This document shows, in pieces, positions 5,065-61,886 of a stretch of 64,000 bases of DNA. Source of the stretch: Candidatus Saccharimonadota bacterium. GTDB lineage: Bacteria; Patescibacteriota; Saccharimonadia; Saccharimonadales; JACOTW01. The DNA is taken from contig JACOTW010000002.1 in the NCBI GenBank assembly GCA_016178135.1, forward strand, positions 13,043-77,042. Direction: 5' to 3'. The position numbers were made by a program, and so were the translations under genes. The notes beneath the pieces are model-generated. The model ran no database searches and was not told where the DNA came from. It worked only from the letters and a program-made list of their open reading frames with translations. Numbering within the stretch: position 1 is the stretch's first letter; each line of letters opens with the position of its first letter.

Positions 5065-5086
5065 GGATGCGGAAAGAGAGAAATAC

Positions 5087-5494: not shown

Positions 5495-5522
5495 ATAATT
5501 AATTTAAATTTGTCTAGAATAG

Positions 5523-22779: not shown

Positions 22780-22780
22780 G

Positions 22781-29410: not shown

Positions 29411-29490
29411 AGGGCTTACGTACTTTTTCGTGGCAATAGACTGGACCTGCCGCACCCGTTATCTACGAAAAAATGTGTAAATCCTATATA
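29409..29490 (+). repeat. Short hairpin element with GGCTTACG-type termini in the ftsK 5' leader
   Basis: AGGGCTTACGTACTTTTTCGT pairs with ACGAAAAAATGTGTAAATCCT, and most mismatches are G-U compatible on the + strand. The termini resemble the type B ends. Confidence 0.45.
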
Positions 29491-29502
29491 ATAAGATCAG
29501 CA

Positions 29503-45085: not shown

Positions 45086-45247
45086 TACTGGACTTACGCA
45101 AAGCTCCCCCATCCCCAGACCAATTCATCTTGGCTGGTAGCGGTCTGTCTTCTCTCGATGTAGCTAAGGCTACCTCTCCTTCAGATAAAACAGTTTTCGC
45201 TCGAGATAATTCACTCTGGGAACGGACGATTTTGCATAAGTCCAGTG
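45086..45247 (-). repeat. Type B palindromic element, copy 5 (mosaic of subfamilies)
   Basis: Runs TACTGGACTTACGCAAAGCTCCCCCATCCCCAGACC...GGACGATTTTGCATAAGTCCAGTG. It lies 14 bp from the type A copy. Confidence 0.9.
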
Positions 45248-46932: not shown

Positions 46933-48741
46933 ATGAGCATCTTATCGGCTGCTATCCAGAAACAGGTTGAAGAAAAGCTTATTAATGACGGTTTGATTAC
47001 CAAGGCCAAATTTAATGACCTTAAAGCCAAAGCGGATGCTGATCATGTACCCGTACTGGGCCTCCTGATTAAGGATGGACAAGTATCTAACGAAGTGCTG
47101 ACTAAAACAGTATCACACATTACCAAAGTACCTTACGTGAATCTGTCTAATGCCAAGATTGACCAAAATATTCTGCAACTTTTGCCACAAGCTCTAGCCG
47201 AGCGTTATATGTCCGTGCCACTCGGGGAAATGCATAATCGTTTAGTGGTAGCCATGCTGGATGCCGGTAATGTTCAGGCTGTGGATTTTCTGTCCAATAA
47301 GATTGGTCGTCCGCTCAAGGTTTATGCTGCCAGCGAAGAAGGCATCAGAAATGTTATAAAACAATATAACTTTTCACTAGACAAGGGAATACCAGGCTCC
47401 TTGACTAAACAGGCAGATACCGAAGCGCAAGCTCTGGAATTAGAAAAATCTAATCTTAAGCCGACTGATAAAACCCAAAATATTAAAGATATTGTTCAGG
47501 ATTCTCCGATTAGTAAGGCTTTGACGACTATTCTTGAGTATTCTGCCAATAACCGAGCTAGTGATATTCATATTGAACCGCTGGAAAAAGAATTGAGAAT
47601 TCGTTGCCGTATCGATGGAGTGCTGCGTGAAATTATGAAGTTACCCAAAAGCACTGAACCGGCTTTGATATCTCGCATCAAGATTCTATCTAATTTAAAA
47701 ATTGACGAACACCGCATTCCTCAAGATGGTACTTTTACCGTTCAGGTGGGAGAAAAGAGCATTGATCTGCGTATAGCGATTTCTCCGGTAGTGTGGGGTG
47801 AGCAGGTAGTTATAAGATTGCTTGATAAGTCTGGGACCAGTCTCAAGCTCGAGGATATGGGATATGCTGGACGAGCATTACATACTATCCGTAAAGGGTT
47901 AAAAGAGTCTAATGGTTTGATTTTGACTTCTGGGCCGACTGGTTCCGGCAAATCTACCTCTATGTACGCGCTTATTCAGGAGATAAAAAACGACAGCATT
48001 AATATTGTTACGCTGGAAGATCCGGTTGAGTATAAGGTAGATGGGGTTAATCAGATACAGGTTAACAGCGATGTTGGTCTGACATTTGCCGCGGGTTTGC
48101 GCTCTATACTGCGTCAAGACCCTAATGTTGTCATGGTCGGGGAAATTCGTGATAAAGAAACTGCTACTCTGGCTGTCCAAGCGGCCCTTACTGGGCACTT
48201 GGTGTTTTCAACCCTGCATACCAATTCAGCTGCTGGTATTTTGCCACGTTTGCTGGATATGGGCATTGAGCCATTCTTGATTGCTAGCACAGTCCATACG
48301 GTTATTGGTCAGCGTTTAGTCCGGCGTATTGCCGGAGAAGACAAAGAAACTCGCCAATCTGACAAGCCGGAAACAGAAGCCATTCGCCAAACAGTCGATC
48401 ATATATTACCGGAAAAATCAGGAGACGTTAAGGCGGTGGCCATAGATCTTGGCTACGAGGACTTGCCGTTGAGGGGGCAAAACGCTTATACTTTATATCA
48501 GGGCAAAGATAGTCCCGATACGCCCGGCGGTTATAAGGGAAGAATGGGGCTGTATGAGGTCTTTGAGATAACGGACACGATTCAAGATCTGATTCTCAAA
48601 CGATCTACCAGTAGTGAGATCCAAAAAGCCGCCCAAGCCCAGGGTATGGTAACTATGCGGGAAGATGGATACCTCAAGGCTCTTGTCGGTCAAACGACAA
48701 TTGCCGAAGTTAATCGGGTGGCTTCTGTCGATAGCGCGTAA
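46933..48741 (+). CDS. pilB: type IV pilus assembly ATPase PilB (GspE family)
   Basis: An N-terminal T2SE_N-type domain is present. Walker A is GPTGSGKST, with an Asp box, Walker B (VVMVGEIRD) and a His box (TGHLVFSTLHTN). Confidence 0.9.
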   Translation: MSILSAAIQKQVEEKLINDGLITKAKFNDLKAKADADHVPVLGLLIKDGQVSNEVLTKTVSHITKVPYVNLSNAKIDQNILQLLPQALAERYMSVPLGEMHNRLVVAMLDAGNVQAVDFLSNKIGRPLKVYAASEEGIRNVIKQYNFSLDKGIPGSLTKQADTEAQALELEKSNLKPTDKTQNIKDIVQDSPISKALTTILEYSANNRASDIHIEPLEKELRIRCRIDGVLREIMKLPKSTEPALISRIKILSNLKIDEHRIPQDGTFTVQVGEKSIDLRIAISPVVWGEQVVIRLLDKSGTSLKLEDMGYAGRALHTIRKGLKESNGLILTSGPTGSGKSTSMYALIQEIKNDSINIVTLEDPVEYKVDGVNQIQVNSDVGLTFAAGLRSILRQDPNVVMVGEIRDKETATLAVQAALTGHLVFSTLHTNSAAGILPRLLDMGIEPFLIASTVHTVIGQRLVRRIAGEDKETRQSDKPETEAIRQTVDHILPEKSGDVKAVAIDLGYEDLPLRGQNAYTLYQGKDSPDTPGGYKGRMGLYEVFEITDTIQDLILKRSTSSEIQKAAQAQGMVTMREDGYLKALVGQTTIAEVNRVASVDSA

Positions 48742-48764
48742 AACTAATAAGGATGGGAAATTAT

Positions 48765-49832
48765 ATGCAGGGACAACCAAGAATCGAAGTACTACTGGAA
48801 GAAGTCATCAAGCGTAAGGCTTCTGATTTGCACTTGCAAGTTGGATTGCCGCCTATGTTGCGCGTTGATGGGGCTTTAATAGCGGTAACTGGATCAGATG
48901 TATTAGATGAAGAAGGGGTTGAATTATTAATTTTTGCCGTACTGGATGAAGACCAGAAACAGATTCTATTGAAAGATAAAGAGTTTGATTTTAGTTTTGC
49001 TTTTGGTGATCTTGGTCGTTTTCGAGTAAACGCCTTCCATGAACGCGGCAATCTTGCGGCCGCCTTGCGCCTTATTCCGAATGAAATTTTAACTATCGAA
49101 CAACTTGGGCTACCACCAGTTGTCAATAAGTTTGCTGATTATCCGCGTGGCTTGGTGCTGATTACTGGGCCGACCGGTTCCGGCAAATCTACCACACTGG
49201 CCGCCTTAATACACAAGATTAATACAGAGCGAGCCGCGCATATTATCACCATTGAAGACCCAATTGAGTTTACCCATAAATATAGTAAATCCGTGATCGT
49301 ACAAAGAGAAGTGCACTATGATACCTATTCTTTTTCTGCCGCTTTGAGGAGTAGTTTGCGCGAAGATCCGGATGTTGTGATGATTGGTGAAATGCGCGAT
49401 CTAGAAACTATAGCCGCGGCTATTACGATTGCCGAAACTGGACATCTGGTCTTTGCCACTTTGCACACCAACTCTGCCGCTCAAAGCATTGACCGTATGA
49501 TTGACGTTTTTCCACCACATCAACAGCCCCAGATTCGTGCCCAATTGTCTAATATTCTGATGGTTATCTGTTCACAGCGTCTAGTGCCAGCCATAGGTGG
49601 TGGTCGATTAGCGGCTGCCGAAATTCTTATTGCTACTCCGGCTGTGCGTAATATTATTCGAGAAGGCAAGAGCCATCAACTTGAGGCAGTGATCCAAACC
49701 GGCGCGGAACACGGCATGCAATCCATGGACAAGACGCTGGCCAACATGATTCATAATGGTAGCATTAGTTATGAAGAAGCTCGCATGGTTGCTGTAGACT
49801 TAAAAGAACTTGATCGTTTAATGAGGGGCTAA
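48765..49832 (+). CDS. pilT: twitching motility ATPase PilT
   Basis: ASDLHLQVGLPPMLRVDG, GPTGSGKSTT and ETGHLVFATLHTNSA are present. About 355 aa. Confidence 0.9.
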   Translation: MQGQPRIEVLLEEVIKRKASDLHLQVGLPPMLRVDGALIAVTGSDVLDEEGVELLIFAVLDEDQKQILLKDKEFDFSFAFGDLGRFRVNAFHERGNLAAALRLIPNEILTIEQLGLPPVVNKFADYPRGLVLITGPTGSGKSTTLAALIHKINTERAAHIITIEDPIEFTHKYSKSVIVQREVHYDTYSFSAALRSSLREDPDVVMIGEMRDLETIAAAITIAETGHLVFATLHTNSAAQSIDRMIDVFPPHQQPQIRAQLSNILMVICSQRLVPAIGGGRLAAAEILIATPAVRNIIREGKSHQLEAVIQTGAEHGMQSMDKTLANMIHNGSISYEEARMVAVDLKELDRLMRG

Positions 49833-49842
49833 AAAATGAGTA

Positions 49843-50040
49843 TACTGGACTTACGCAAAATCACCCGTTCCCAGGCTAAACTGGACTTACGCAAAATCGT
49901 CCGTTCCCAGAGTGAATTATTTCGAGCGAAAACTGTTTTATCTGAAGGAGAGGTAGCCTTAGCTACATCGAAAGAAGGCAGACCGCTACCAGCCGAGATG
50001 AATTGGTCTTGGGATGGGGGAGCTTTGCGTAAGTCCAGTA
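49843..50040 (+). repeat. Type B palindromic element, copy 6 (duplicated left terminus, mosaic)
   Basis: TACTGGACTTACGCAAAATCACCCGTTCCCAGGCTAAAC is followed at once by a second TGGACTTACGCAAAATCGTCCGTTCCCAG..., and the copy ends ...GAGCTTTGCGTAAGTCCAGTA. Confidence 0.9.
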
Positions 50041-50086
50041 TACAATTAGTACAATCCATGATTAGCCGGCATATTGGAGCTTCGGT

Positions 50087-51307
50087 ATGTTGACCTACAA
50101 ATATATCGCTAAAGATATGACTAGTGGCCAGAAGATCAAGGCCCAGGTTCAGGCTGATAGTGAGCAAGAAGCAGCTAAATTGATTCATGCTCAAGGCTTT
50201 ACTCCACTCAATATTACTTTGGAGGGTGCTGGTGTTGGGAGCATATTTAAGCGTTTTGGTAATCATGTAAAAACCAAAGACAAGGTTTTGTTTTCGCGTC
50301 AATTATCTACGCTTATCAATGCTGGATTGCCAATAATTCAAAGTTTGCGCAGTGTTTTAAGCCAAACACAGAGTAAGCCATTAAAAGCAGTAATTAATCA
50401 AGTAATAACTGATGTAGAAGGCGGTTCGGCGCTTTCCGTGTCTTTAGGGCGGCATCCGGCTGTTTTTAACGATGTTTTCACTAGTCTGATTGCTGCCGGC
50501 GAGGTTTCTGGTACGCTGGATGCCGCGTTGGATCGGCTTGCTATTCAGCAAGAAAAAGACGCTGAAGTAATCAGTAAAGTTCGTGGCGCCATGATTTATC
50601 CAATCATTGTCGTTATTGTTATGATGGGCGTTGTTGGTTTTATGGTTGTTACGGTCTTGCCGCAAGTGGAGATTTTATATGACGGCTTACCGGGCTCTAA
50701 ATTGCCGTTTGTTACGGTGGCTCTCTTGGCGCTGTCGCATTTTGTCATAAAATTTTGGTGGCTTGTTCTCGTGTCGTTGGTTGTATTCGTACTTTTCACG
50801 ACGCGCTGGGCCAGGACATTGGCGGGTAAGCGAGTATTTGATAAGCTCAAAATGAAAAGCTGGCCAATCGGCCCATTGTTCATGAAACTTTATATGGCGC
50901 GTTTTGCCCGAACCGGCACTACACTGGTATCCAGTGGCGTACCACTGATACAAATGCTGGAAATAACATCTGACGCTATAGACAACGTTCATATTGCAGA
51001 ATCAATCAAGGCGGCCATAGAAAAGGTCAAGGGCGGTAAAGCGCTATCGACTGCTCTTGAAAATGATCCTAACTTTTTAGAACTGGTACCGAATATGTTA
51101 AAAATTGGTGAACAATCAGGTTCTATAGAGCAAATGCTAGCCAAAACAGCCGACTATTACGAAAAAGAGGTAGACAACCAAATCAAAGCCATATCAACCA
51201 TTATCGAACCAGTCATGATGGTATTGATAGGTGGTATGGCGTTTATCATTGTAGCGGCCGTATTGTTGCCAATTTATGGCCTGGCTGGCCAAAATATCAT
51301 CAAATAG
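50087..51307 (+). CDS. pilC: type IV pilus platform protein PilC (GspF family)
   Basis: 406 aa with two GspF repeats (FSRQLSTLINAGLPIIQSL / FARTGTTLVSSGVPLIQML) and three TM regions. Confidence 0.9.
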   Translation: MLTYKYIAKDMTSGQKIKAQVQADSEQEAAKLIHAQGFTPLNITLEGAGVGSIFKRFGNHVKTKDKVLFSRQLSTLINAGLPIIQSLRSVLSQTQSKPLKAVINQVITDVEGGSALSVSLGRHPAVFNDVFTSLIAAGEVSGTLDAALDRLAIQQEKDAEVISKVRGAMIYPIIVVIVMMGVVGFMVVTVLPQVEILYDGLPGSKLPFVTVALLALSHFVIKFWWLVLVSLVVFVLFTTRWARTLAGKRVFDKLKMKSWPIGPLFMKLYMARFARTGTTLVSSGVPLIQMLEITSDAIDNVHIAESIKAAIEKVKGGKALSTALENDPNFLELVPNMLKIGEQSGSIEQMLAKTADYYEKEVDNQIKAISTIIEPVMMVLIGGMAFIIVAAVLLPIYGLAGQNIIK

Positions 51308-51490
51308 ACCTCTTTTGTAATCATCAGCTCACTTCTGAAACTCGCGATATTTTTTAACTACCCGGAGAGTTATTCACAGGTTCTTAGGTGTTTTAGCTAT
51401 AAAGTTAGAAAAATGCTTGTGCTTTTTGAAAAAAGTTCGTAAAATTAGGCTAGTAATATTAATAATCATATTCTAAGGGGGCATTTGTTT

Positions 51491-51955
51491 ATGTATACAA
51501 AACTAAAACAACGAGAAGAAGGCTTTTCTATCATAGAAGTCTTGATAGTACTGGCTATTGCTGGACTTATCATGTTGATTGTGTTCTTGGCCGTTCCGGC
51601 CCTGCAACGTAACAGTCGAAACACTCAAAGGCGTAGTCAGGTAGCCGGTTATCTGGGCGCGACTACCGAGTTCATGTCAAACAACAATGGCGCATTGCCA
51701 ACTACGGTTGCTCATGCAACAACCATTAATGGTCTTGCTGCTGACAGTATCATGACAGAGCCTACCGTCGCTCCAGCTGTTGGTGCTCAAGCTGGCGTTA
51801 TCTCTAACAATGGTCCATTTCAACTGGTTACTGCCGCAAAGTGCGATACAGCAACTATAGGTAACACTATAGCTGGTCCAGCCAGAGCTGTTGCTCTTCG
51901 CTTCGCAACCGAAAACTCCACTGGTGGTAACGTACCACAGTGCCAAGAAGGTTAA
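51491..51955 (+). CDS. pilA: type IV pilin (major pilin candidate)
   Basis: The prepilin leader and cleavage/methylation motif is KQREEG|FSIIEVLIVLAIAGLIMLIVF, with Glu at +5. A strong terminator follows. Confidence 0.85.
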   Translation: MYTKLKQREEGFSIIEVLIVLAIAGLIMLIVFLAVPALQRNSRNTQRRSQVAGYLGATTEFMSNNNGALPTTVAHATTINGLAADSIMTEPTVAPAVGAQAGVISNNGPFQLVTAAKCDTATIGNTIAGPARAVALRFATENSTGGNVPQCQEG

Positions 51956-51977
51956 ATCTTAGCCCGCGATAATATAA

Positions 51978-52010
51978 ATAGCGACTCCGAAAGGAGTCGC
52001 TATTTATTAT
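51978..52010 (+). terminator. Rho-independent terminator after pilA
   Basis: ATAGCGACTCC-GAAA-GGAGTCGCTAT is followed by TTATTATT. Confidence 0.8.
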
Positions 52011-52052
52011 TGCCTAAACCGTACATATAAATATATGTTAATATAACTTCTA

Positions 52053-53042
52053 ATGATTAACGGTATAATTATAGTTTTTGTTGGATTGGTTTTGGGTAGT
52101 TTTGTCAACGCGTTGGTTTGGCGGCTACATCTACTGGCCTTACGCAAAGCTCCCTCATCCCCAGACCGACTAACCTCGGCTACAAACAGTTTTTCCTCTC
52201 TCGATGTACCTTCAGGTACCTCTCCTTCGGATAAAACTGTTTTCGCTCGAGCTGATTCGCTCTGGGAACGAGGGATTTTGCGTAAATCCAGCCTACAATC
52301 CACCAAACATCCAAAAAAACCTGATAATAAAAAATATTCGATTGTTAGTGGGCGTAGCATGTGTCCAGATTGCCGACACCAGTTGGCCTGGTATGATTTG
52401 ATCCCAGTCATTAGTTGGCTAGGTCTTCGGGGGCGCTGTCGCTATTGCCATAGACCAATAAGTTGGCAGTATCCATTAGTGGAAATACTAACTGCTGTAA
52501 CTTTTATCACATCGTATGTTTATTGGCCTTACTCTTGGTCTGCTATTGGTATTACGTTATTTATTGTTTGGATCGTGTCGCTTATCAGTTTCATGGCGCT
52601 TGCCGTCTATGATTTGCGTTGGTTTATTTTGCCGGATAAAATTGTATTTCCTTTAGTCGGACTTGCGGCCATCCAGATCATCATGCGGACTGTATTATAT
52701 GGCGAAATAAGTCCTATACTAGGTGGTCTAATAGGTGTTGTTACGCTTGCTGGTTTATTTTATGCACTGTTCCAATTCTCAAAAGGACAGTGGATTGGTG
52801 GAGGAGATGTAAAGCTGGCAGTAGCTCTAGGTATGTTGGCAGGCGGAGCGGCCGAGAGCGTGTTACTGCTATTTTTAGCATCGTTAATTGGTACTTTGGT
52901 GAGTTTACCACTTCTGTTAAGTAAGAAACTAAAAAAGAATAGCCGGATTCCATTCGGCCCCTTACTTCTTATGGCTACCTTTATCGTCTATATTTTTGGG
53001 TCTGACATCATTAATTGGCTTAAGCTGTATTATTTTTATTAG
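52053..53042 (+). CDS. pilD: prepilin peptidase (A24 family) carrying an in-frame type B element
   Basis: LGSFVNALVWRL...CPDCRHQLAWYDLIPVISWL...CRYC forms a zinc-finger-like region. GGGDVKL is an active-site Asp motif. About 53 codons (52132-52291) are element-derived. Confidence 0.85.
   Translation: MINGIIIVFVGLVLGSFVNALVWRLHLLALRKAPSSPDRLTSATNSFSSLDVPSGTSPSDKTVFARADSLWERGILRKSSLQSTKHPKKPDNKKYSIVSGRSMCPDCRHQLAWYDLIPVISWLGLRGRCRYCHRPISWQYPLVEILTAVTFITSYVYWPYSWSAIGITLFIVWIVSLISFMALAVYDLRWFILPDKIVFPLVGLAAIQIIMRTVLYGEISPILGGLIGVVTLAGLFYALFQFSKGQWIGGGDVKLAVALGMLAGGAAESVLLLFLASLIGTLVSLPLLLSKKLKKNSRIPFGPLLLMATFIVYIFGSDIINWLKLYYFY
52132..52291 (-). repeat. Type B palindromic element, copy 7 (inside pilD, in frame)
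   Basis: Runs TACTGGCCTTACGCAAAGCTCCCTCATCCCCAGACC...GAGGGATTTTGCGTAAATCCAG. It translates as LLALRKAPSSPDRL...WERGILRKSS. Confidence 0.9.
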
Positions 53043-53047
53043 ATAGA

Positions 53048-53140
53048 ATTTTCGCACTTTTTCATCACCCCAGATCATACTTGAACGGCCATAAACATTA
53101 CTCAAAATTTGGTCATTTTGTTTTGGGATGGCTATACATA
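53048..53140 (+). repeat. Family C repeat, immediately 3' of the pilD stop
   Basis: Runs TTTTCGCACTTTTTCATCACCCCAGATCATACTTGAACGGCCATAAAC...TTTGGTCATTTTGTTTTGGGATGGCTATACA. Related copies lie at 8165, 60471 and 61651. Confidence 0.7.
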
Positions 53141-53179
53141 GTCCTTATGTTATAATTCGAGTGGACATGGATATCTATT

Positions 53180-54289
53180 ATGGACAGTCATAAACAGCCA
53201 CAAGCATCCCATAGATCTTATAGTCAGGGCAGTTTACTCGACTCACCCAAAATCGCCCGTTCCCGGAGTGAATTATCTCGAGCGAAAACTGTTTTATCTG
53301 AAAGAGGGGTACCTGAAGGTACATCGAGAGAGGAAAAACTGTTTGTAGCCGAGGTTAGTCGATCTGGCGATGGAGGAGTTTTGGGTAAGTCGAGTATAGG
53401 CTATACGATTGTTGAAGTTATGATTTTTCTGGCTATTTCCAGTGCCATACTTGTTAGTGCTTTATTGTTGGTAGGTGGGCAACAACAAAAAACGCAGTTC
53501 ACCCAATCTTTAAGAGATATTGATTCTCATATTCGTGACGTAATGAATGACGTGTCAGCTGGTATTTATAGTAATACTGGCAATTTTCAGTGCCTGGCAG
53601 ATAATGCCGGCAGTGCTCCAGTTATATCGGCTGGTGCCGATAAACAAGGAGCAAATGTCAGCTGTATTTACATCGGTAAGGTTTTACAGTTTGGACCGGC
53701 TTCCAGTCCAGAGGATTTCAATGTGTTTAGTGTTGCCGGCCGTCAATTTCGAGGCGCGCCAATTGCCTCAAAGTTAGTTTCAGATATAACAGAGTCTAAG
53801 CCAGTGCCAATAGCGCCGAATATCGCTCATCTTGCCATGATTGGTCCAGGATTAGATGCTACAGATTACAATAAACTCGATTACGGACTTACTATAAAAG
53901 ACAATAGTGATGGGGCTCATCCGGGCTTAAGTTATGATAATGGTAGTGGCCCGCAGGCCATAGGGGCATTTGGCTTTTTTTCTAACTTTGTTACTTATCC
54001 TGACGGTAGTGCAAGTCCTGAATCAGGTCGACAGTTTACCGATATTTGGGTGATCCCTGCCAGTGCTTATGGCGATGATGCGCGAAATGTTGCCGACGAC
54101 ATCATTGATATTGGTGGTTTAAGCAGTTCAGCTGCTACCTCGTTTAAAAATCCGGCTAAAGGTATTACTTTATGTTTTTTGAGTAGCGGAACAGATCAAT
54201 ATGGCAAAATAACTATCGGTGATAATAATCAAAGACTTGCTACTACGTTGTCAGTAGGTTACAGAGGAGATGGGAGTATTTGTACATGA
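53180..54289 (+). CDS. pilin-like protein (prepilin-type N-terminal domain) with an element-derived leader
   Basis: The mature N-terminus would be G|YTIVEVMIFLAISSAILV. The 72 codons before it are mostly type B element. An alternative TTG start at 53381 is preceded by GGAGGA and would give the leader MGKSSIG. Confidence 0.7.
   Translation: MDSHKQPQASHRSYSQGSLLDSPKIARSRSELSRAKTVLSERGVPEGTSREEKLFVAEVSRSGDGGVLGKSSIGYTIVEVMIFLAISSAILVSALLLVGGQQQKTQFTQSLRDIDSHIRDVMNDVSAGIYSNTGNFQCLADNAGSAPVISAGADKQGANVSCIYIGKVLQFGPASSPEDFNVFSVAGRQFRGAPIASKLVSDITESKPVPIAPNIAHLAMIGPGLDATDYNKLDYGLTIKDNSDGAHPGLSYDNGSGPQAIGAFGFFSNFVTYPDGSASPESGRQFTDIWVIPASAYGDDARNVADDIIDIGGLSSSAATSFKNPAKGITLCFLSSGTDQYGKITIGDNNQRLATTLSVGYRGDGSICT
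53235..53396 (+). repeat. Type B palindromic element, copy 8 (in the 5' part of the pilin-like gene)
   Basis: Runs TACTCGACTCACCCAAAATCGCCCGTTCCCGGAGTG...GATGGAGGAGTTTTGGGTAAGTCGAGTA. Confidence 0.9.
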
Positions 54290-54813
54290 AACTAGCGATG
54301 CGCGGAGATACGATTGTTGAGGTATTGATTGCAATCACTATTATAGGCATTGTTTTAAGTGGTGCTTATGTGGCGGTTAATAGCAGTCTAAATGCCTCAC
54401 AGGACTCTCTAGAAAGAAGTTCGGGTACAAAACTTGCCGAAAGCCAGTTAGAACGCCTAAAAAGCGTATCTGACGACGAGATAACCGCTGCGATCTTTGA
54501 TACTAGCAAGCACCGAGTATTTTGTATGGATACCTCAAACACAAGACAGGACTTTACTACCAAGGCTGTCGGTGATGCTATGCCACCTCCTGACTCTGAT
54601 ATTTTAAGCTCTCCTCCAGGAGGTGATTATCCAGCCAGTTGTATTATAGATAATGCTAACGATGAATATAATGCCGGAAGTCGAGGTATTCAATATTATG
54701 TATCCATTGAACGCGATGAAACTGATCACCACAAATGGATCGCTCGAGCACGTTGGCAGGGTACGGGTATTAAGGGTGTGCAAGAAGCTTCTGTAGCTTA
54801 TAGGGTGTATTGA
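54280..54813 (+). CDS. minor pilin-like protein
   Basis: Leader MYMKLAMRG|DTIVEVLIAITIIGIVLSG with Glu at +5. It overlaps the upstream gene by 10 nt. Confidence 0.7.
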   Translation: MYMKLAMRGDTIVEVLIAITIIGIVLSGAYVAVNSSLNASQDSLERSSGTKLAESQLERLKSVSDDEITAAIFDTSKHRVFCMDTSNTRQDFTTKAVGDAMPPPDSDILSSPPGGDYPASCIIDNANDEYNAGSRGIQYYVSIERDETDHHKWIARARWQGTGIKGVQEASVAYRVY

Positions 54814-54814
54814 T

Positions 54815-55444
54815 ATGAAAAACAAACAAACTGGATTCACGATTATTGAACTACTAATAGCAACACTTGTATTTTCTGTAATATTACTTTTGGCCACAAG
54901 CGGGCTTTTACAGATTGGTCGTTTGTATAATAAGGGAGTTATTAATAGTAGAACCCAAGAAGTGGCCAGAACAATTATGGAAGACATATCCCAGTCCATT
55001 CAGTTTAATGGCGGTAACGTAACTCCTGCTATTATGTCCAGTGGCGTAGCTCCGAATACCTCTACGGGTTTTTGCATTGGCCAACGCCGTTACAGTATGA
55101 TATTAGGCAAGGAGATGGCCGATACTTCTACGAGTCATGGTTTGGTCGCGGACACTATTACTAGTTCATGTACCACAAGTGTAGCCGCTCTGGATCTTTC
55201 ACAGACAAGTCCACCAGGAGCCAATAACCCAAGAGAGTTTCTGGCGCCATTTATGCGTATTGCTTACCTCGATGTTACCTCGTATGGTAATAATCTGTAT
55301 AGAATTAGTCTTAGGCTTGCATATGGTGACGACGATTTGTTAACTAGCTTAACTGGATACACTGCTCAATGTAAAGATGAGGATGGTACTCAATTCTGCT
55401 CAACGGCGGAATTGAGTACAATTATTCAGAAACGTGTAAAATAA
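54815..55444 (+). CDS. minor pilin-like protein
   Basis: MKNKQTG|FTIIELLIATLVFSVILLLA is a canonical prepilin cleavage/methylation motif. Confidence 0.8.
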   Translation: MKNKQTGFTIIELLIATLVFSVILLLATSGLLQIGRLYNKGVINSRTQEVARTIMEDISQSIQFNGGNVTPAIMSSGVAPNTSTGFCIGQRRYSMILGKEMADTSTSHGLVADTITSSCTTSVAALDLSQTSPPGANNPREFLAPFMRIAYLDVTSYGNNLYRISLRLAYGDDDLLTSLTGYTAQCKDEDGTQFCSTAELSTIIQKRVK

Positions 55445-55463
55445 AGGAAGTAGCACTAGCATT

Positions 55464-56666
55464 ATGAAAAAAATCATTACACTGGACTTACGCAAAATCG
55501 CCCGTTCCCAGGCTAAATCAGCTCGAGTTGGGAGTGGTTTAGCTGAAGGAGAGGTAGCCATAGCTACATCGAGAGAAGACAGACTGCTACCAGCCGAGAT
55601 GAATTGGTCTGGGAATGGGGGAGCTTTGCGTAAGTCCAGTACACTCAAAAAAAACCAGTCTGGTCTAGTTTCTATAATAGTAACCTTGATAATCATGTTG
55701 GTTATGAGCTTAATTGTTATTGGCTTTGCTAAGCTGGTACGGCGTGATCAACGCCAAACGCTTGATAAGCAACTTAATGCCCAGGCGTTTTATGCTGCCG
55801 AAGCAGGCATTAATGACGCTAGGCAAGATATTAGGGTCGCCCTTAATGCTGGAACACCAATTCCAGAGAAATCTACCTGTGCCCCAAACAGTAGTCCGCC
55901 TTTTGATAAGTCAAATATAGTTGATAGCGCACGTAACATTTCTTATACCTGTCTTCTTGTCGATCCGACGCCTGAAAGTCTGGAATACAGCAATATTGAC
56001 ACCAGCACCTCGACAGTTGTGCCGGTAACACTTAAAGATACGACCGACCACATTACGTCAATAACTGTAAGCTGGCAAGCTAAAGATGGAAATACGAATT
56101 TTGCTTGTCCGGGTAGCGGTGTTTATCCGGCTCTGCCCGCGTCTTCTCTATGGGGATGTGGTATAGGTATTATGCGACTAGATCTTGTCCCGACTGATGG
56201 ACATAAGACAAGGGCTGATTATACGAATACGACTTTCAGTAGATTCCTGTATCCTTTACCGGGGTCGCCAGGAGTTAATTCTGTTGGATATGTAGGTAGT
56301 CAAGGTGATTTTGTGCCAGTACAGTGCAGTGCTACGGCTGTACCAAAATACTGTACGTTAACCATAACGGGTTTAAGCACCACCAATTTATATATCCGTC
56401 TGAAGTCAATATATATTGCTTCAAACGCTACGATTACTTGTACGACTGCCTCGGGTGCGGCATGTGAAATGGGCGGGACGCAGATATTGGTTGATTCTAC
56501 AGGGAAAGCCAATGACGTTTTACGTCGTATACAGGTGAGGGTTCCTGATGTAATATCAGGTATATTGCCGGAAGGAGCGCTTGATACCAGTAGCAATATC
56601 TGTAAACGTTACGTTATTGTTAATAACTCTTCTTTGAGCGATCCTGATTCATGCGGTACCAATTAA
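55464..56666 (+). CDS. PilX-like pilus-associated protein with a type B element in frame after codon 6
   Basis: MKKIIT + [LDLRK...LRKSS] + TLKKNQSGLVSIIVTLIIMLVMSLIVIGF. A basic leader followed by QSG and a hydrophobic helix is the PilX-type pseudopilin pattern. Confidence 0.65.
   Translation: MKKIITLDLRKIARSQAKSARVGSGLAEGEVAIATSREDRLLPAEMNWSGNGGALRKSSTLKKNQSGLVSIIVTLIIMLVMSLIVIGFAKLVRRDQRQTLDKQLNAQAFYAAEAGINDARQDIRVALNAGTPIPEKSTCAPNSSPPFDKSNIVDSARNISYTCLLVDPTPESLEYSNIDTSTSTVVPVTLKDTTDHITSITVSWQAKDGNTNFACPGSGVYPALPASSLWGCGIGIMRLDLVPTDGHKTRADYTNTTFSRFLYPLPGSPGVNSVGYVGSQGDFVPVQCSATAVPKYCTLTITGLSTTNLYIRLKSIYIASNATITCTTASGAACEMGGTQILVDSTGKANDVLRRIQVRVPDVISGILPEGALDTSSNICKRYVIVNNSSLSDPDSCGTN
55481..55641 (+). 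repeat. Type B palindromic element, copy 9 (in the PilX-like gene, in frame)
   Basis: Runs ACTGGACTTACGCAAAATCGCCCGTTCCCAGGCTAAATCAGCTCGAG...GGGGGAGCTTTGCGTAAGTCCAGTA. Confidence 0.9.
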
Positions 56667-56670
56667 TCTT

Positions 56671-56831
56671 TACTGGACTTACGCAAAATCCCTTGTTCCC
56701 AGGGTGAATCAGCTCGAGCGAAAACAGTTTTGTCTGAAGGAGAGGTACCCAGGAGGTACATCGAGAGAAGAAAAACTGTTTGTAGCCGAGGTTAGTCGGT
56801 CTGGGAACGAGGGATTTTGCGTAAGTCCAGT
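56671..56831 (+). repeat. Type B palindromic element, copy 10
   Basis: Runs TACTGGACTTACGCAAAATCCCTTGTTCCCAGGGTGAATCAGCTCGAGCG...GAGGGATTTTGCGTAAGTCCAGT. Confidence 0.9.
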
Positions 56832-56854
56832 TTAGGAATTAGTTTATAAGACTT

Positions 56855-59038
56855 CTAGGACTTACGTGAATGAAATTTCTCATGTATAGCTTTTAAGTGT
56901 GGATCGGTAACATGAGTGTATATTTGGGTTGTAGATATATTACTATGACCAAGCATTGCCTGAACTGACCTCAAATCTGCACCGTTCATTAATAAATCTG
57001 TTGCAAATGAATTATGTGAGACGAAGCCATCTGCAATTAAATTTTCGGTTTCTTCTACTGTGAAGTCGTATACAGTTATATCTGTTTTGATTCTATCGGT
57101 CTTATGAACTTTGAGCCATTTTATCTGGTTATTACTACTCGCTAGTCTACGGAGTAGGTTCATTCTGGGGTCTAATATACCAGCACGTTTGAATCGCACA
57201 TAAAAACGCATTGCTGTTTCTTTGGTCGGGAGGACTTGGCCGCTTAAGTATCTAGAGTGGTCCTTTAGTGTTCTTTGATCTTTACGGCGAGTATACAGAC
57301 TTTTACCGGATTCTTTGACTAGTTTGTTTAGGTTAACTAGCATTTCAGTAATTGGTAGTTTTTCACCTACAAAATCCGGACTGATGTTTATCTTTTTGAG
57401 CGTAGGAATTTTGGTGACAAATTTTTGCTGATCTGGCTGGTATAGTATCTGAAGATTGTAGATTGTGAAGGGTTGTTTGACCGTATCTGCAGATTTATGG
57501 GGTAAACGAACCATACGGTTACGTGTATAGAAATGGGCATCAATTCCAAGTCTAAGTAATAACATCTGGATGTCTTTTATAAATTCTTTGTTGGCGCTGA
57601 AGAATTTGGCGTCGCCCTCGTTGCCGTCTGCGTCGTAGAGACCGGCCAAGAAATGGGCAACGGCACTTTCTGATGACCTGAATAATTTGTCTGGTACACG
57701 TAGGCCATGGGTTGTGGTTGCGAGCCCTAGTTTCTTTAGTAGTTTTACAAGAGGCATATGGTAGCAAGTGACATTAAAACTGTTGGAATTAGATGCTGGC
57801 TTGATTTCGACTTTTTTGTTGAATAATTTTTCTATTAAGTCAACGTAGAGGCTCAAGAAAACTTTGTTTTTGTCGTGTAGTATTACGCCGTGCCGACGTT
57901 CGCTGACAGTTCCGTCACCACATATGTAGCCAATAAGTCGCCACATGTCGTTCGACAAATACTGTTTGCTTTGTTGGGATATTTTCTTGACCCCCATAAC
58001 GTAATCACCAGATTTTAGGTCACTTGCTTGGATTTGAGCAAATCCGTCTTTGTCTAGAGTAAATAAACGGTGTTCTGGGGTACACACAAGCTCGTAACCA
58101 CCGGCAGTTAGCTGAATCATTTCTGTAGATTTGTGGGTGCTTGAATGACTAATGGCTTGCGATGTCTGTGTACCTTTATTGAGATGGAGCGACTTTACGC
58201 TGTGTTTGGTTGAATTATAAAGATATTCTGCACTTACTATTCTACGGGGAAGGCTGATTCTAGTATTTGGGTGTAGACAATGGCGGAGCGTGTGGGGGGA
58301 TACGTGTTTGGTGATGCCAGCAAGGACTGCGTAGCGGGCGACTAATCTTTGTACGCTGCGGGCGGTAAGGCGGTAATAATTGCCGCTGACAGTTGATTTT
58401 TTGCTGCCGCTGTATCTGATAAATAGGGGTAGGGAATTGTCTTGGCGTTTGTCCATATATTGTGTAATCCACCAAGCCGATGTATCGCTAATGAATATTG
58501 GGCGGTCTTTTTGGCCTTTGCCCCGAACCATAAACTCGCGTCGTTTGAGATTGATATGATCCTTGTCTAGCCCTACAAGCTCCGAGACGCGCAGTCCCGA
58601 AGAAAATAATAGTTCTAAAATAGCCCGATCTCTTAGTCCTGGTAAGTTATCAATATTTGGTTGAGAAAATAATCGTTCAAGTTCCTCGGGTGCTAAAAAG
58701 GTAACTTGTTTTCTGACAGTTCGAGCCAGTTCAATCTTGTCAGCAGAGATAGCTGGGATATTGCGTTTGGCGCAATACTTCAAGAAGCCTCTTAGCGCTA
58801 TGAGGTGATAATTCTGGGTATTTTTTTGTAATTCATCACTTGTATTTGTGCCCAGTCGATTCAGCCACAATCTCCATTTCCGTATCATTTCCGTATCAAT
58901 ACCAGATATTTTAATATCACCGGTGAAATCTATTAAGCGCGTTAGGTAGTGGTCATAGTTACGGATAGTTTTTTGTGATCTATTTTGTTCGATTTCTAGG
59001 TATTCCAGGAAATCAGTTTTGGCTTTAGAAAATAACAT
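56855..59038 (-). CDS. XerC/XerD-family tyrosine recombinase interrupted by an intein
   Basis: The exteins total 304 aa. The N-terminal SAM-like domain reads [33 protein letters not shown]-type box I ([19 protein letters not shown]) and HVSPHTLRH are present. After the 423-aa insert come [34 protein letters not shown], which include the catalytic Tyr. Confidence 0.88.
57011..58279 (-). mobile_element. Class 1 intein with a LAGLIDADG homing endonuclease (423 aa) inside the recombinase
   Basis: It begins with Cys (CLHPNTRI, block A). Block B is TPEH, and the LAGLIDADG motifs are [11 protein letters not shown] and [11 protein letters not shown]. Blocks F/G are [21 protein letters not shown], followed by the +1 Ser. 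Codon checks: TGT at 58279-58277, AAT at 57013-57011, TCA at 57010-57008. Confidence 0.88.
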
Positions 59039-59272: not shown

Positions 59273-59785
59273 ATGGAACGAACATTAATTATTCTAAAGC
59301 CTGATGCGGTAAAGCGCGGTATTGTCGGCGAAGTTTTAACTAGATTTGAACGTGTTGGTCTAAAAGTTGTGGGCTGTAAAATGCTCCAGCCGGACTACAA
59401 TCATTACCACCATCATTACGAAAAAATTGGCCAGATGATTACCAGGCGTGGCGAAGAAATATTTGAAGTAACTCTGGAAATGATGAAAGAAGGTCCGGTA
59501 ATAGCACTTGTTTTGGAAGGTATAGAGGCGGTTTCTTTGGTGCGTAAAATGGTGGGTGAGACTGAACCAAAATCAGCAGCTCCGGGTACGATCAGGGGTG
59601 ATTATTCTCATATTAGCTTTAATTATGCCGACAAGGAAAAAATTGCTATCCCAAATATTATTCATGCCTCTGGCGACCCTAAAGAAGCTAAACAGGAAAT
59701 AGGCCATTGGTTTAGTGACAGCGAGTTGTTTGAGTATAATACCACCCATGAGACTTACACTCAGGCTCACCCCCGCAAGCAATAG
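59273..59785 (+). CDS. ndk: nucleoside-diphosphate kinase
   Basis: MERTLIILKPDAVKRGIVGEVLTRFERVGLKVVGCKM is present, with the active-site region NIIHASG. Confidence 0.88.
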   Translation: MERTLIILKPDAVKRGIVGEVLTRFERVGLKVVGCKMLQPDYNHYHHHYEKIGQMITRRGEEIFEVTLEMMKEGPVIALVLEGIEAVSLVRKMVGETEPKSAAPGTIRGDYSHISFNYADKEKIAIPNIIHASGDPKEAKQEIGHWFSDSELFEYNTTHETYTQAHPRKQ

Positions 59786-61724: not shown

Positions 61725-61886
61725 AAACTCGACTTACGCAAAATCGTCCATTCTCAGACCAACTAACCTCGGCTGATAGCGGTCTGCCTTCTTTCGATGC
61801 AGCTAAGGCTACCTCTCCTTCAGTCAAACCACTATAAACTCGAGCTGATTTGCCCTGGGAACGGGCGATTTTGCATAAGTCCAGTG
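61725..61886 (-). repeat. Type B palindromic element, copy 12
   Basis: Runs AAACTCGACTTACGCAAAATCGTCCATTCTCAGACC...GGGCGATTTTGCATAAGTCCAGTG. Confidence 0.9.

What the first reader, a model, noticed from the sequence alone, without database searches (positions are those of the whole stretch)
57011..58279. LAGLIDADG intein splitting the catalytic box II of a XerC/D-type tyrosine recombinase
The 727-aa ORF reads ...HVSPHTLRH | CLHPNTRI...(423 aa)...ADGFVSHN | [34 protein letters not shown].

- Removing the insert restores the contiguous Xer motif HxLRHSFATxLL and gives a 304-aa protein of normal Xer size.
- The insert has every hallmark of a class 1 intein: Cys1, TxxH (TPEH), two LAGLIDADG motifs, a terminal HN and a +1 Ser.
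- The insertion point is one residue after the catalytic Arg of the HxxR box, so the precursor should be inactive until it splices.

Inteins are typically found in replication and repair proteins such as DnaB, DnaE, RecA, RNR and GyrB. I am not aware of a characterised intein in a Xer-type site-specific recombinase, so both the host protein and the insertion site deserve a look.
Basis: partly seen in the sequence, partly recalled or inferred. Interest (0 to 1): 0.75.

Follow-up and report, generated by a model that had tools for sequence, protein, structure and literature searches.

The report
Homing intein inside a Xer recombinase
The chromosome-resolving Xer recombinase gene of this Saccharibacteria (CPR) bacterium is interrupted at its active site by a self-splicing, endonuclease-carrying intein; this undescribed but mechanistically ordinary selfish element recurs at the same codon in hundreds of CPR bacteria and in some DPANN archaea.

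Summary
ORF 56855-59038 (-) encodes 727 aa, and residues 254-676 (window 57011-58279) form a 423-aa insert between ...HTLRH and SFATDLL... Hint and LAGLIDADG HMMs hit the insert. The spliced 304-aa extein aligns end to end with XerC, XerD and XerA models. An AlphaFold model matches endonuclease-bearing inteins (TliVMA, PI-PfuI, PI-SceI), with XerA/XerD for the flanks.

It is not a one-off. More than 120 protein clusters carry the same intein at the same site, with Cys1, TxxH, HN and +1 Ser/Cys essentially invariant and both LAGLIDADG acidic residues conserved. Intein-free alleles at 82-88% extein identity are abundant in Saccharibacteria, one of them with the same pilin-gene neighbours. Intein and extein divergence are uncoupled. 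The intein also sits in DPANN archaeal XerA-like genes, where inteins are 41% identical and exteins 32%.

The best reading is a mobile class 1 homing intein cycling through Xer/XerA genes of ultrasmall prokaryotes. Splicing and endonuclease activity are inferred, not shown.

Eight literature searches found no description, although JGI auto-annotation already labels such proteins "XerD/intein/homing endonuclease". I rate it a new member of a known kind, of moderate interest.

The parts
56855..59038 (-). Precursor gene: intein-containing Xer-family tyrosine recombinase, 727 aa plus stop
   Evidence: ORF list. It is 100% identical to NCBI protein P0001, 'tyrosine-type recombinase/integrase [Candidatus Saccharibacteria bacterium]'.
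58280..59038 (-). N-extein, aa 1-253. It holds the SAM-like N-terminal domain and the first part of the catalytic domain, with R150, K174, H249 and R252.
   Evidence: Pfam Phage_int_SAM_1 at 9-92 and Phage_integrase at 114-254. R150, K174, H249, R252 and H253 are invariant in 63 homologs.
57953..58279 (-). Intein N-terminal splicing (Hint) region, aa 254-362: block A Cys254 and block B T320-P-E-H323
   Evidence: NCBIfam intein_Nterm at 254-327. Cys1 is present in 115 of 115 homologs, block B T/S and H in 115 of 115. The AF2 model is all-beta here with pLDDT above 85.
57404..57952 (-). LAGLIDADG homing-endonuclease domain, aa 363-545. Motif 1 is aa 368-376 (57911-57937, catalytic D375). Motif 2 is aa 464-472 (57623-57649, catalytic D471).
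   Evidence: Pfam LAGLIDADG_3 1e-15 in two stretches. D375 is conserved in 111 of 115 homologs and D/E471 in 115 of 115. Against L002, pN is 0.041 and pS 0.728. Foldseek matches I-DmoI and I-Tsp061I with target TM 0.6-0.7.
57119..57403 (-). Helical region between the endonuclease and the C-terminal Hint strands, aa 546-640. It is the least conserved part (31% mean pairwise identity). It is possibly an extra DNA-binding module like those of PI-PfuI or PI-TkoII.
   Evidence: Region-wise identity. Helices 564-576, 606-618 and 624-633 in the AF2 model. The function is inferred only.
57011..57118 (-). Intein C-terminal splicing region, aa 641-676: block [15 protein letters not shown] and block G DGFVSHN ending in H675-N676
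   Evidence: NCBIfam intein_Cterm at 656-677. D658, F659, G671, H675 and N676 are invariant. Asn is present in 115 of 115 homologs and the penultimate His in 114 of 115.
56858..57010 (-). C-extein, aa 677-727: +1 Ser677, SFATDLL, H698 and the Tyr nucleophile Y707
   Evidence: The +1 residue is Ser in 111 and Cys in 4 of 115 homologs. H698 and Y707 are invariant. In the joined extein this segment aligns to the end of the Xer models.

Best explanation
This is a canonical class 1 intein carrying a two-motif LAGLIDADG homing endonuclease. It is inserted in frame in the chromosomal Xer-family (XerA-like) tyrosine recombinase gene of a Saccharibacteria bacterium, between H253 and S677 of the box II motif HxLRH|SFAT.

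Inferred mechanism:
- The 727-aa precursor is translated.
- Cys254 performs the N-S acyl shift.
- Ser677 attacks the thioester.
- Asn676 cyclises, assisted by His675 and the block B His323.
- A 304-aa recombinase with a restored active site and a free 423-aa intein are released.

The free intein, or the precursor, should act as a site-specific endonuclease. It would cut intein-free xer alleles at the highly conserved DNA that encodes PHTLRH|SFATDLL, and repair from an intein-bearing copy would spread the element (homing).

The element is an established lineage that cycles by gain and loss through Xer/XerA genes of CPR bacteria and DPANN archaea. It persists as a selfish element because it targets an indispensable, invariant active-site motif.

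What is shown:
- the anatomy;
- family-wide conservation of all splicing and endonuclease residues;
- purifying selection on the endonuclease domain;
- presence/absence polymorphism;
- intein and host trees that do not match.

What is inferred: actual splicing, actual DNA cleavage and its target, and inactivity of the precursor.
For: - **Domain calls:**. The joined extein aligns in a single stretch, full length, to XerC (250 bits), XerD (248 bits) and XerA (226 bits, above its cut-off of 220).
- **Structure:** in the AF2 model the intein part has pLDDT mostly 86-97. The top PDB fold matches are the TliVMA intein 7qss (E 3e-22, target TM 0.70), PI-PfuI 1dq3, PI-TkoII 2cw7 and PI-SceI. The exteins match XerA 4a8e/5hxy and XerD 1a0p.
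- **Same site everywhere:** all 120 listed homologs carry the insert at the same site.
- **Conserved residues in the 115 full-length ones:**
  - Cys1 in 115 of 115.
  - Block B T/S and H in 115 of 115.
  - HN in 114 and 115 of 115.
  - +1 Ser or Cys in 115 of 115.
  - LAGLIDADG acidic residues in 111 and 115 of 115.
- **Selection:** for the endonuclease domain against the closest relative L002, pN is 0.041 and pS 0.728.
- **Intein-free alleles:** alleles of 304-310 aa at 82-88% identity to the extein are abundant. One of them (L001) has the same convergent pilin-gene neighbours, and 77 of 90 nt around the empty site are identical.
- **Uncoupled divergence:** extein and intein pairwise identities correlate poorly (Spearman 0.31). 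P0061/P0097 have exteins at 51% and inteins at 75%. P0088/P0115 have exteins at 77% and inteins at 37%.
- **Archaeal hosts:** L015 is flanked by archaeal-type uS9 and uL13. Archaeal-host inteins are as close to CPR inteins (41%) as CPR inteins are to each other (40%), while the exteins drop from 51% to 32%.
- **A decayed copy:** one archaeal-looking host (P0275) carries a shortened 294-aa version in which both LAGLIDADG acidic residues are lost, the decay stage expected in a homing cycle.
- **Chromosomal context:** the window also encodes ArgRS, DnaG, PNPase, RNase J and an FtsK with a gamma domain.
Against: - No experiment shows splicing or cleavage.
- Synonymous sites are saturated even against the closest relative, so dN/dS is only qualitative.
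- The equal intein identity of about 40% within and between domains could partly reflect a saturation plateau rather than recent transfer.
- The NJ tree has no support values.
- Nearly all sampled copies keep an intact endonuclease, with only one decayed copy seen. That is more uniform than a simple homing-cycle model predicts. However, the searches ranked full-length matches first, so decayed copies are under-sampled.
- Whether this is the only xer gene of the genome could not be checked. Only 64 kb was available, and it holds one xer gene.
Confidence: 0.85

Rival explanations
1. Domesticated or regulatory intein. The element is kept because splicing is conditional, triggered for example by redox state, temperature, DNA or a partner protein. 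It would then gate Xer activity, giving post-translational control of chromosome-dimer resolution in organisms with minimal regulatory repertoires.
For: - The insertion splits the catalytic pocket: R-K-H-R lies in the N-extein, His and Tyr in the C-extein. Splicing is therefore plausibly an obligatory activation step.
- The intein lineage is old and widespread across many CPR phyla, with invariant splicing residues.
- Conditional splicing is established for other recombination-protein inteins such as RadA (own knowledge). RadA/Rad51 inteins are the nearest sequence relatives outside recombinases.
Against: - Close relatives do perfectly well without it. Intein-free alleles at 82-88% identity dominate in Saccharibacteria.
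- The endonuclease residues are conserved and under purifying selection. That points to mobility, not to a splicing-only switch.
- There is no extra Cys near the junction that would suggest a disulfide trap. The -3 to -1 residues are L-R-H.
Confidence: 0.08
2. Ancient, strictly vertically inherited intein that is no longer mobile. On this view it was fixed in an ancestor of CPR and later lost many times, and the endonuclease domain is conserved for a structural or other reason.
For: - The identical insertion site and similar length (410-430 aa) in all copies.
- The deep divergence among inteins, about 40% identity.
Against: - Intein and extein distances are poorly correlated, with strongly discordant pairs in both directions.
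- Archaeal inteins nest among CPR inteins although the hosts are only 32% identical.
- Against L002 the intein is at least as conserved as the extein (86% against 84%; pS 0.73 against 0.84), whereas against L004 and L005 it is much less conserved (58% and 55% against 81% and 79%).
- The catalytic acidic residues are retained.
Confidence: 0.05
3. Not a functional intein. The insert would be a non-splicing Hint/BIL-like insertion, a pseudogene or an assembly chimera, so the gene yields no active recombinase.
For: Nothing specific. The C-extein is poorly modelled in the AF2 precursor (pLDDT 33-53), which is expected for a precursor.
Against: - The frame is intact over 727 codons.
- The same architecture occurs in more than 120 independent clusters from NCBI, JGI, ENA and Logan assemblies and in 74 genome loci.
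- All class 1 splicing residues are invariant.
- BIL domains lack the +1 nucleophile and the endonuclease (own knowledge).
- GC and GC3 of the intein equal those of the extein (0.41 against 0.42, and 0.39 against 0.39).
Confidence: 0.02

Closest known systems
Archaeal LAGLIDADG-bearing class 1 inteins with solved structures: TliVMA/PhoVMA inteins (7qss, 7qsu, 7qst), PI-PfuI (1dq3), PI-TkoII (2cw7) and PI-SceI (1vde, 1lws)
   Same: - A Hint splicing domain split by a two-motif LAGLIDADG endonuclease, followed by an extra helical region.
- Cys1, TxxH, HN and a +1 nucleophile.
- Best fold matches: E 3e-22 to 7e-15, target TM 0.52-0.74.
- Best sequence match in the PDB is PI-PfuI at 3.5e-10.
   Different: - The host protein is a tyrosine recombinase, not V-ATPase, RNR or DNA polymerase.
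- Sequence identity is only 12-21% in the structural alignments.
- The hosts are CPR bacteria and DPANN archaea rather than Thermococcales or yeast.
RadA/Rad51 inteins (e.g. the Pho RadA intein, 2lqm/4e2t)
   Same: - They are the nearest non-recombinase-hosted relatives in the exhaustive intein-only search. P0264 and P0269 are Rad51/RadA hosts at 30% identity or less.
- They are also inserted in a DNA-recombination enzyme at a catalytic motif.
   Different: - The host family and insertion site differ.
- The solved Pho RadA intein is a mini-intein without an endonuclease.
Xer-family chromosome-dimer resolvases: archaeal XerA (P. abyssi 4a8e, T. acidophilum 5hxy) and bacterial XerD (1a0p) and XerC
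   Same: - The spliced extein has the full R-K-H-R-H-Y catalytic set and aligns over the full length.
- It passes the NCBIfam XerA cut-off (226 against 220).
- The fold matches XerA and XerD.
- An FtsK with a gamma domain is encoded in the same window.
   Different: - It scores below the XerC and XerD equivalog cut-offs (250 against 335, and 248 against 330).
- No dif site was identified.
- None of the characterised Xer proteins carries an intein.
LAGLIDADG homing endonucleases in rRNA-gene insertion sequences or introns of CPR bacteria (PMC11270868)
   Same: The same endonuclease superfamily acts as a selfish invader of highly conserved genes in the same group of organisms.
   Different: - Those elements are spliced at the RNA level from rRNA genes.
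- The element here is spliced at the protein level from a protein-coding gene.
- That paper mentions inteins only twice and not in Xer.

Membership tests
Class 1 intein (Hint superfamily) | Nucleophilic Cys/Ser as first intein residue (block A) | tested here: met
   Cys254. Cys is present in 115 of 115 homologs.
Class 1 intein (Hint superfamily) | Block B TxxH motif | tested here: met
   T320-P-E-H323. T/S is present in 115 of 115 and H in 115 of 115 homologs.
Class 1 intein (Hint superfamily) | C-terminal His-Asn followed by a +1 Ser/Thr/Cys on the C-extein (blocks F and G) | tested here: met
   VYDF...DGFVSH675-N676|S677. Asn is present in 115 of 115 homologs, His in 114 of 115, and +1 is Ser in 111 and Cys in 4. 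TIGR01443 scores 32.9 bits against a cut-off of 15.6.
Class 1 intein (Hint superfamily) | Hint fold recognised by profile and structure | tested here: met
   PF14890 at 2.8e-19 and TIGR01445 at 31.4 bits against a cut-off of 24.5. Foldseek matches solved inteins at E 3e-22.
Class 1 intein (Hint superfamily) | Removal of the insert restores a contiguous, full-length host protein | tested here: met
   The 304-aa extein aligns in a single stretch, residues 9-303, against 2-293 of 295 positions of XerC. Natural intein-free alleles of 304-310 aa exist at 82-88% identity.
Class 1 intein (Hint superfamily) | Protein splicing demonstrated | not testable with these tools
   This needs expression of the precursor followed by SDS-PAGE or mass spectrometry.
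LAGLIDADG homing endonuclease (two-motif, monomeric) | Two LAGLIDADG motifs, each ending in a catalytic acidic residue | tested here: met
   LIGYICGD375G and LAGLYDAD471G. D is present in 111 of 115 homologs and D/E in 115 of 115.
LAGLIDADG homing endonuclease (two-motif, monomeric) | Pseudo-dimeric alpha-beta-beta-alpha-beta-beta-alpha fold | tested here: met
   The AF2 secondary structure over 363-545 has pLDDT above 90. Foldseek matches I-DmoI and I-Tsp061I with target TM 0.6-0.7. PF14528 hits in two stretches.
LAGLIDADG homing endonuclease (two-motif, monomeric) | Site-specific cleavage of the intein-free allele | not testable with these tools
   Only indirect evidence is available: purifying selection (pN 0.041 against pS 0.728) and horizontal distribution.
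Xer-type tyrosine recombinase (XerC/XerD/XerA) | Catalytic R-K-H-R-H/W-Y residues | tested here: met
   R150, K174, H249, R252, H698 and Y707 are invariant in 63 aligned homologs.
Xer-type tyrosine recombinase (XerC/XerD/XerA) | Score above the curated equivalog cut-off for bacterial XerC or XerD | tested here: not met
   The spliced extein scores 250 against a cut-off of 335.15 for XerC, and 248 against 329.6 for XerD.
Xer-type tyrosine recombinase (XerC/XerD/XerA) | Score above the curated cut-off for archaeal-type XerA (NF040815) | tested here: met
   226.3 bits against a cut-off of 220. NCBI names intein-free homologs 'site-specific tyrosine recombinase/integron integrase'.
Xer-type tyrosine recombinase (XerC/XerD/XerA) | Acts at a chromosomal dif site, with FtsK in bacteria | tested here: inconclusive
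   An FtsK with a gamma domain lies at 29473-31707. No dif-like inverted repeat lies next to the gene. The rest of the genome was not available.

The most novel reading that the evidence does not exclude
The Xer intein is more than a parasite. In some CPR and DPANN lineages, splicing might be conditional and act as a post-translational switch, licensing chromosome-dimer resolution only in a particular cellular state.

A separate and more probable reading (about 0.6) is that the same element has crossed the Bacteria-Archaea boundary between CPR and DPANN cells. That would make it a marker of direct gene flow between the two groups of ultrasmall symbionts.
Probability: 0.1. Interest if true: 0.8.

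Novelty: new member of a known kind. Interest (0 to 1): 0.5.

Why it matters
- **A new host family:** it adds tyrosine site-specific recombinases, and specifically the box II HxxRH|S active-site motif, to the list of intein hosts and insertion sites. Eight full-text searches found no paper describing one. The 2016 survey of intein-containing proteins (PMC4760082) does not mention integrase, Xer or tyrosine recombinase in its main text.
- **An active element in minimal genomes:** CPR bacteria have tiny genomes, yet they sustain an apparently active homing intein lineage in a core chromosome-maintenance gene.
- **Possible cross-domain gene flow:** the same lineage occurs in DPANN archaeal XerA-like genes, with intein similarity exceeding host similarity. 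That is a candidate case of inter-domain transfer between two groups that share habitats.
- **Practical uses:** the family offers a set of natural inteins with a Ser +1 junction in a recombinase. It also offers new LAGLIDADG enzymes whose predicted target is a universally conserved recombinase-coding sequence.
- **Mechanism:** nothing in the evidence departs from a textbook intein.

Tried and rejected
- **Second xer gene or second related intein in the window:** phmmer of the intein and the extein against all six-frame ORFs of at least 70 aa found only the gene itself.
- **dif site next to the gene:** the flanking intergenic regions hold no dif-like inverted repeat. The only hit is a 9-nt pair that belongs to a dispersed hairpin repeat.
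- **Phages as carriers:** no cultured phage in INPHARED has this intein. The best hits are 23-26% identical inteins in Bacillus phage helicase and RNR genes. In IMG/VR, only one of 80 loci (L076) carries the Xer intein; the others are inteins at 41% identity or less, mostly partial matches, whose host genes I did not examine.
- **dN/dS:** synonymous sites are saturated in all four comparisons, so only pN against pS for L002 is usable.
- **Promoter and terminator scan around the gene:** counts are no higher than in shuffled sequence.
- **Rfam at gathering threshold:** only four tRNAs in the window.
- **Literature:** eight searches combined intein with tyrosine recombinase, XerD, XerC/XerA, CPR, Patescibacteria, Saccharibacteria, DPANN and integrase. 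The co-occurrences I opened were coincidental, and the titles and abstracts of the rest showed nothing relevant. The supplements of PMC4760082 are not held.
- **Assembly artefact, pseudogene or BIL domain:** rejected, as set out under the rival explanations.
Full report
**1. The observation**

The 727-aa ORF is at 56855..59038 on the minus strand. 'CLHPNTRI' begins at residue 254 and 'SFATDLL' at residue 677. The insert is therefore 423 aa and maps to window 57011..58279, exactly the coordinates given. Deleting it leaves a 304-aa protein that reads ...HVSPHTLRH|[10 protein letters not shown]... The named motifs are all present:
- Cys254;
- T320-P-E-H323;
- LIGYICGD375G;
- LAGLYDAD471G;
- H675-N676;
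- Ser677.

**2. Domain identity**

Pfam finds the following:

| Family | E-value | Position |
|---|---|---|
| Phage_integrase | 9.7e-37 | split into two stretches |
| Intein_splicing | 2.8e-19 | 272-676 |
| LAGLIDADG_3 | 1e-15 | two stretches |
| N-terminal SAM-like integrase domain | 7.5e-12 (Phage_int_SAM_1) | 9-92 |

NCBIfam places intein_Nterm at 254-327 and intein_Cterm at 656-677, both above their curated cut-offs. It also gives weaker hits to many intein-containing equivalogs such as DnaB, RNR, IF-2, RFC and RtcB.

With the insert removed, the extein aligns as a single uninterrupted stretch over the entire XerC (250 bits), XerD (248 bits) and XerA (226 bits) models. It passes only the archaeal-type XerA cut-off of 220. 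The XerC and XerD equivalog cut-offs (335 and 330) are not reached. The host is therefore best called a Xer-family, XerA-like recombinase.

R150, K174, H249, R252, H698 and Y707 are invariant across 63 aligned homologs. The intein sits one residue after the box II Arg and separates R-K-H-R from the second His and the Tyr nucleophile.

**3. Structure**

An AlphaFold2 model of the precursor, built from 63 sequences, has mean pLDDT 82.9. Ten-residue block means in the intein are mostly 86-97, with short dips to 64-71. The C-extein is poorly placed, with pLDDT 33-53, as expected for an unspliced precursor.

Foldseek against the PDB returns endonuclease-bearing inteins first:
- TliVMA intein 7qss, E 3e-22, target TM 0.70;
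- PI-PfuI 1dq3;
- PhoVMA intein 7qst;
- PI-TkoII 2cw7;
- PI-SceI.

XerA (4a8e, 5hxy) and XerD (1a0p) follow for the exteins, and I-DmoI and I-Tsp061I for the endonuclease core. By sequence alone, the best solved relative is PI-PfuI at 3.5e-10.

**4. It is a family, not a singleton**

A search with the whole protein finds a 100% identical NCBI entry from 'Candidatus Saccharibacteria bacterium' on a 146-kb contig. It also lists 120 clusters at 41-87% identity. The 115 full-length ones are 705-777 aa, and the other five are shorter or partial (572-674 aa). They come from Saccharibacteria, Berkelbacteria, Azambacteria, Kazan, Yanofskybacteria and unclassified Patescibacteria. JGI's pipeline already names several of them 'site-specific recombinase XerD/intein/homing endonuclease'.

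Every one has the insert at the same place, HxxRH|C...HN|S/C. In the 115 full-length members:

| Residue | Conservation |
|---|---|
| Cys1 | 115 of 115 |
| Block B T/S | 115 of 115 |
| Block B His | 115 of 115 |
| Penultimate His | 114 of 115 |
| Terminal Asn | 115 of 115 |
| +1 residue | Ser 111, Cys 4 |
| LAGLIDADG motif 1 acidic residue (D) | 111 of 115 |
| LAGLIDADG motif 2 acidic residue (D/E) | 115 of 115 |

Mean pairwise identity is 55% for the exteins, 49% for the endonuclease domain, 41% for the N-terminal and 56% for the C-terminal Hint parts, and 31% for the helical region at 546-640.

**5. Specificity of the intein lineage**

An exhaustive HMMER search with the intein alone, against 1.84 billion cluster representatives, gives 29 representatives at E of 1e-30 or better. 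Nearly all of them are tyrosine recombinases carrying the intein at the same HxxRH|C site. They include more divergent Phage_integrase-family hosts whose C-exteins differ (HN|SRVTHLV, HN|SFAINWI, HN|SYVMRGI and others).

The next relatives, at 30% identity or less, are inteins in RadA/Rad51 and in large replication proteins. This is therefore a distinct intein allele dedicated to box II of tyrosine recombinases.

**6. Mobility**

- **Intein-free alleles.** Searching with the extein alone returns only intein-free proteins of 303-348 aa (mostly 304-310) among the best 120. They are 82-88% identical to the extein and many are labelled Saccharibacteria. They are as close as, or closer than, the nearest intein-bearing relative, whose extein is 84% identical (L002). 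One intein-free allele (L001) has the same convergent pilin-like neighbours as the window, and 77 of 90 nt around the empty site are identical.
- **Uncoupled divergence.** Extein and intein divergence correlate weakly (Spearman 0.31) and show strongly discordant pairs in both directions.
- **Purifying selection.** Against L002, the endonuclease domain has pN 0.041 against pS 0.728, and the whole intein has pN 0.082. The extein has pN 0.131 and pS 0.84. The endonuclease is therefore under strong purifying selection. In this pair the intein is at least as conserved as its host gene. Against L004 and L005 the opposite holds, with extein 81% and 79% against intein 58% and 55%.
- **A decayed copy.** One archaeal-looking host (P0275) carries a 294-aa version in which both LAGLIDADG acidic positions are lost. 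This is the decay stage of a homing cycle.
- **Composition.** GC and GC3 of the intein equal those of the extein, so the element is long resident in this kind of genome.

**7. Taxonomic spread**

A scan of one genome per GTDB species, using a junction-spanning alignment, found 74 loci.

- **CPR bacteria.** Most loci are from CPR lineages: Saccharibacteria, Zambryskiibacteria, Nomurabacteria, Brennerbacteria, Azambacteria, Kazan, Peregrinibacteria, Taylorbacteria, Kaiserbacteria, Woesebacteria, Gottesmanbacteria, Microgenomates, Nealsonbacteria, Paceibacteria and others.
- **DPANN archaea.** Six loci are labelled Woesearchaeota, Nanoarchaeota, Pacearchaeota or simply 'archaeon'. For L015 the label is verified: its neighbours are archaeal-type uS9 (144 bits against 78 for the bacterial model) and uL13 (113 against 39). 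The other five labels were not checked. L009 has a RadC neighbour, which is uninformative.
- **Unverified labels.** A few contigs are labelled Gammaproteobacteria, Pseudomonadales, Nevskiaceae or Chloroflexi. All but the Chloroflexi-labelled one (L013, SYATHLLE) have CPR-like exteins (SFATDLL or SFATTLL, 47-61% identical to ours). I treat all these labels as unverified.

| Comparison | Extein identity | Intein identity |
|---|---|---|
| Archaeal against bacterial hosts | 31.7% | 40.9% |
| Bacterial against bacterial hosts | 51.1% | 40.3% |

In an unbootstrapped NJ tree, the archaeal inteins form two groups nested among CPR groups. In close pairs the intein evolves faster than the host. An intein more similar than its host across domains therefore argues for inter-domain transfer. 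The caveat is a possible identity plateau near 40%.

**8. Possible vectors**

No cultured phage carries the intein. One IMG/VR contig of 93.9 kb (L076) encodes an intein-bearing Xer-like recombinase. Its neighbours are an HNH endonuclease, a DnaB/RecA-like ATPase, a replication initiator and a DNA methyltransferase. At least one copy therefore sits in a virus-like or mobile element.

**9. Genomic context**

The window is ordinary chromosome. It encodes:
- ArgRS, DnaG, PNPase and RNase J;
- a type I restriction R subunit;
- FtsK with alpha, motor and gamma domains (29473-31707);
- type IV pilus genes PilB, PilT and PilC, followed by pilin-like genes that run up to the xer gene;
- ndk (my reading of the 59273-59785 translation, not profile-tested) and four tRNAs.

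The presence of FtsK-gamma fits a bacterial Xer/FtsK dimer-resolution system. No dif site was found beside the gene.

**10. Comparison with what is known**

Mechanistically this is a textbook class 1 intein with a LAGLIDADG homing endonuclease. All sequence and fold criteria for membership are met. Only the biochemical criteria, splicing and cleavage, are untestable here.

The new elements are the host family and the insertion site. Eight full-text searches found no paper describing a natural intein in a Xer or other tyrosine recombinase. The hits were engineered split-intein recombinases or, where I opened or read them, coincidental co-occurrences. The main text of the 2016 cross-domain intein survey has no mention of integrase, Xer or tyrosine recombinase, and its supplements were not available. 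Reviews of archaeal tyrosine recombinases and of Xer systems in the library contain no occurrence of 'intein'. Automated annotation in public databases already recognises both domains, however, so the sequences themselves are not new.

**11. Verdict**

- Best explanation, at confidence 0.85: an active, mobile homing intein that must splice to yield a functional Xer recombinase. It belongs to a lineage that circulates among Xer/XerA genes of CPR bacteria and DPANN archaea.
- Novelty: a new member of a known kind, meaning a new intein host and insertion site.
- Interest: moderate, at 0.5. The undescribed host family, the breadth across CPR and the likely inter-domain sharing raise it. The fully canonical mechanism lowers it.

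Noticed in passing
window 34652-34811, 45087-45246, 49880-50039, 52133-52292, 53236-53395, 55481-55640, 56672-56831, 61727-61885; solo ends near 2235, 8804, 38205, 49844, 63893: A dispersed near-palindromic repeat of about 165 nt occurs in at least 8 full copies within 64 kb. Its end motif ACTGGACTTACGCAAAAT gives 21 matches against 0.04 expected. The copy at 56669-56836 folds into a single long hairpin (-94.9 kcal/mol, z = -12.8) and fills the gap between the convergent pilin-like gene and the xer stop codon. It has no Rfam family. It could be a MITE/REP-like element or a bidirectional terminator.
   Followed up: partly
window 53180-53400 and 55464-55645: The mechanical ORFs 53180..54289 and 55464..56666 begin inside copies of the hairpin repeat. 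Their similar N-terminal 'peptides' (…SREEKLFVAEVSRSGDGG… and …SREDRLLPAEMNWSGNGG…) are probably untranslated repeat DNA. The true pilin-like starts are likely further downstream, near the hydrophobic N-methyl-type segment.
   Followed up: no
window 29473-31707 (+): FtsK/SpoIIIE translocase with 4TM, alpha, motor and gamma domains (gamma 95 bits). It is the usual activator of bacterial Xer recombination, encoded 25 kb from the intein-bearing xer gene.
   Followed up: partly
window 21268-28254 (+): A type I restriction-modification R subunit (HSDR_N, SWI2_SNF2, T1R_D3) lies at 25081-28254. It is preceded by three co-oriented ORFs (21268-25088) that are probably the M and S subunits; these were not checked.
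   Followed up: no
window 41072-43660 (+): An 862-aa ORF has no Pfam family at E of 1e-5 or better.
   Followed up: no
window 46933-56666: A type IV pilus block: PilB-like and PilT-like ATPases and a PilC-like platform protein, followed by several pilin-like ORFs that run up to xer. The pilin-xer adjacency is conserved in the intein-free locus L001.
   Followed up: partly
L076 (IMGVR_UViG_3300025015_000021, 93.9 kb), gene at 4302-6461: This is the only viral-collection contig carrying the Xer intein. The recombinase sits among an HNH endonuclease, a DnaB/RecA-like ATPase, a DnaD/replication-initiator-like protein and a DNA methyltransferase. It may be a phage or mobile-element vector for the intein.
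   Followed up: partly
P0275 (586 aa): An Arg/Glu/Leu-rich, XerA-like recombinase carries a shortened 294-aa intein at the same site. Both LAGLIDADG acidic residues are replaced (…LAGLCVGAGS…, …FLEGIFDSLG…). It is an apparently decaying endonuclease in the same intein lineage.
   Followed up: partly
L011, L013, L018, L020, L021, L022, L041, L055: These intein-bearing xer loci are on MAG contigs labelled Gammaproteobacteria, Pseudomonadales, Nevskiaceae or Chloroflexi. Most have CPR-like exteins (SFATDLL, 47-61% identical to ours). Either the labels are wrong or the intein reaches beyond CPR and DPANN.
   Followed up: no
L015 4135-4554 and L009/L015 upstream ORFs: In two DPANN-labelled loci (L009, L015) the intein-bearing recombinase is preceded by a double-zinc-ribbon protein. 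In L015 it is followed by a fragment with a serine-recombinase 'Recombinase' domain. This hints that some archaeal copies sit in integrated elements rather than at the housekeeping xerA locus.
   Followed up: no
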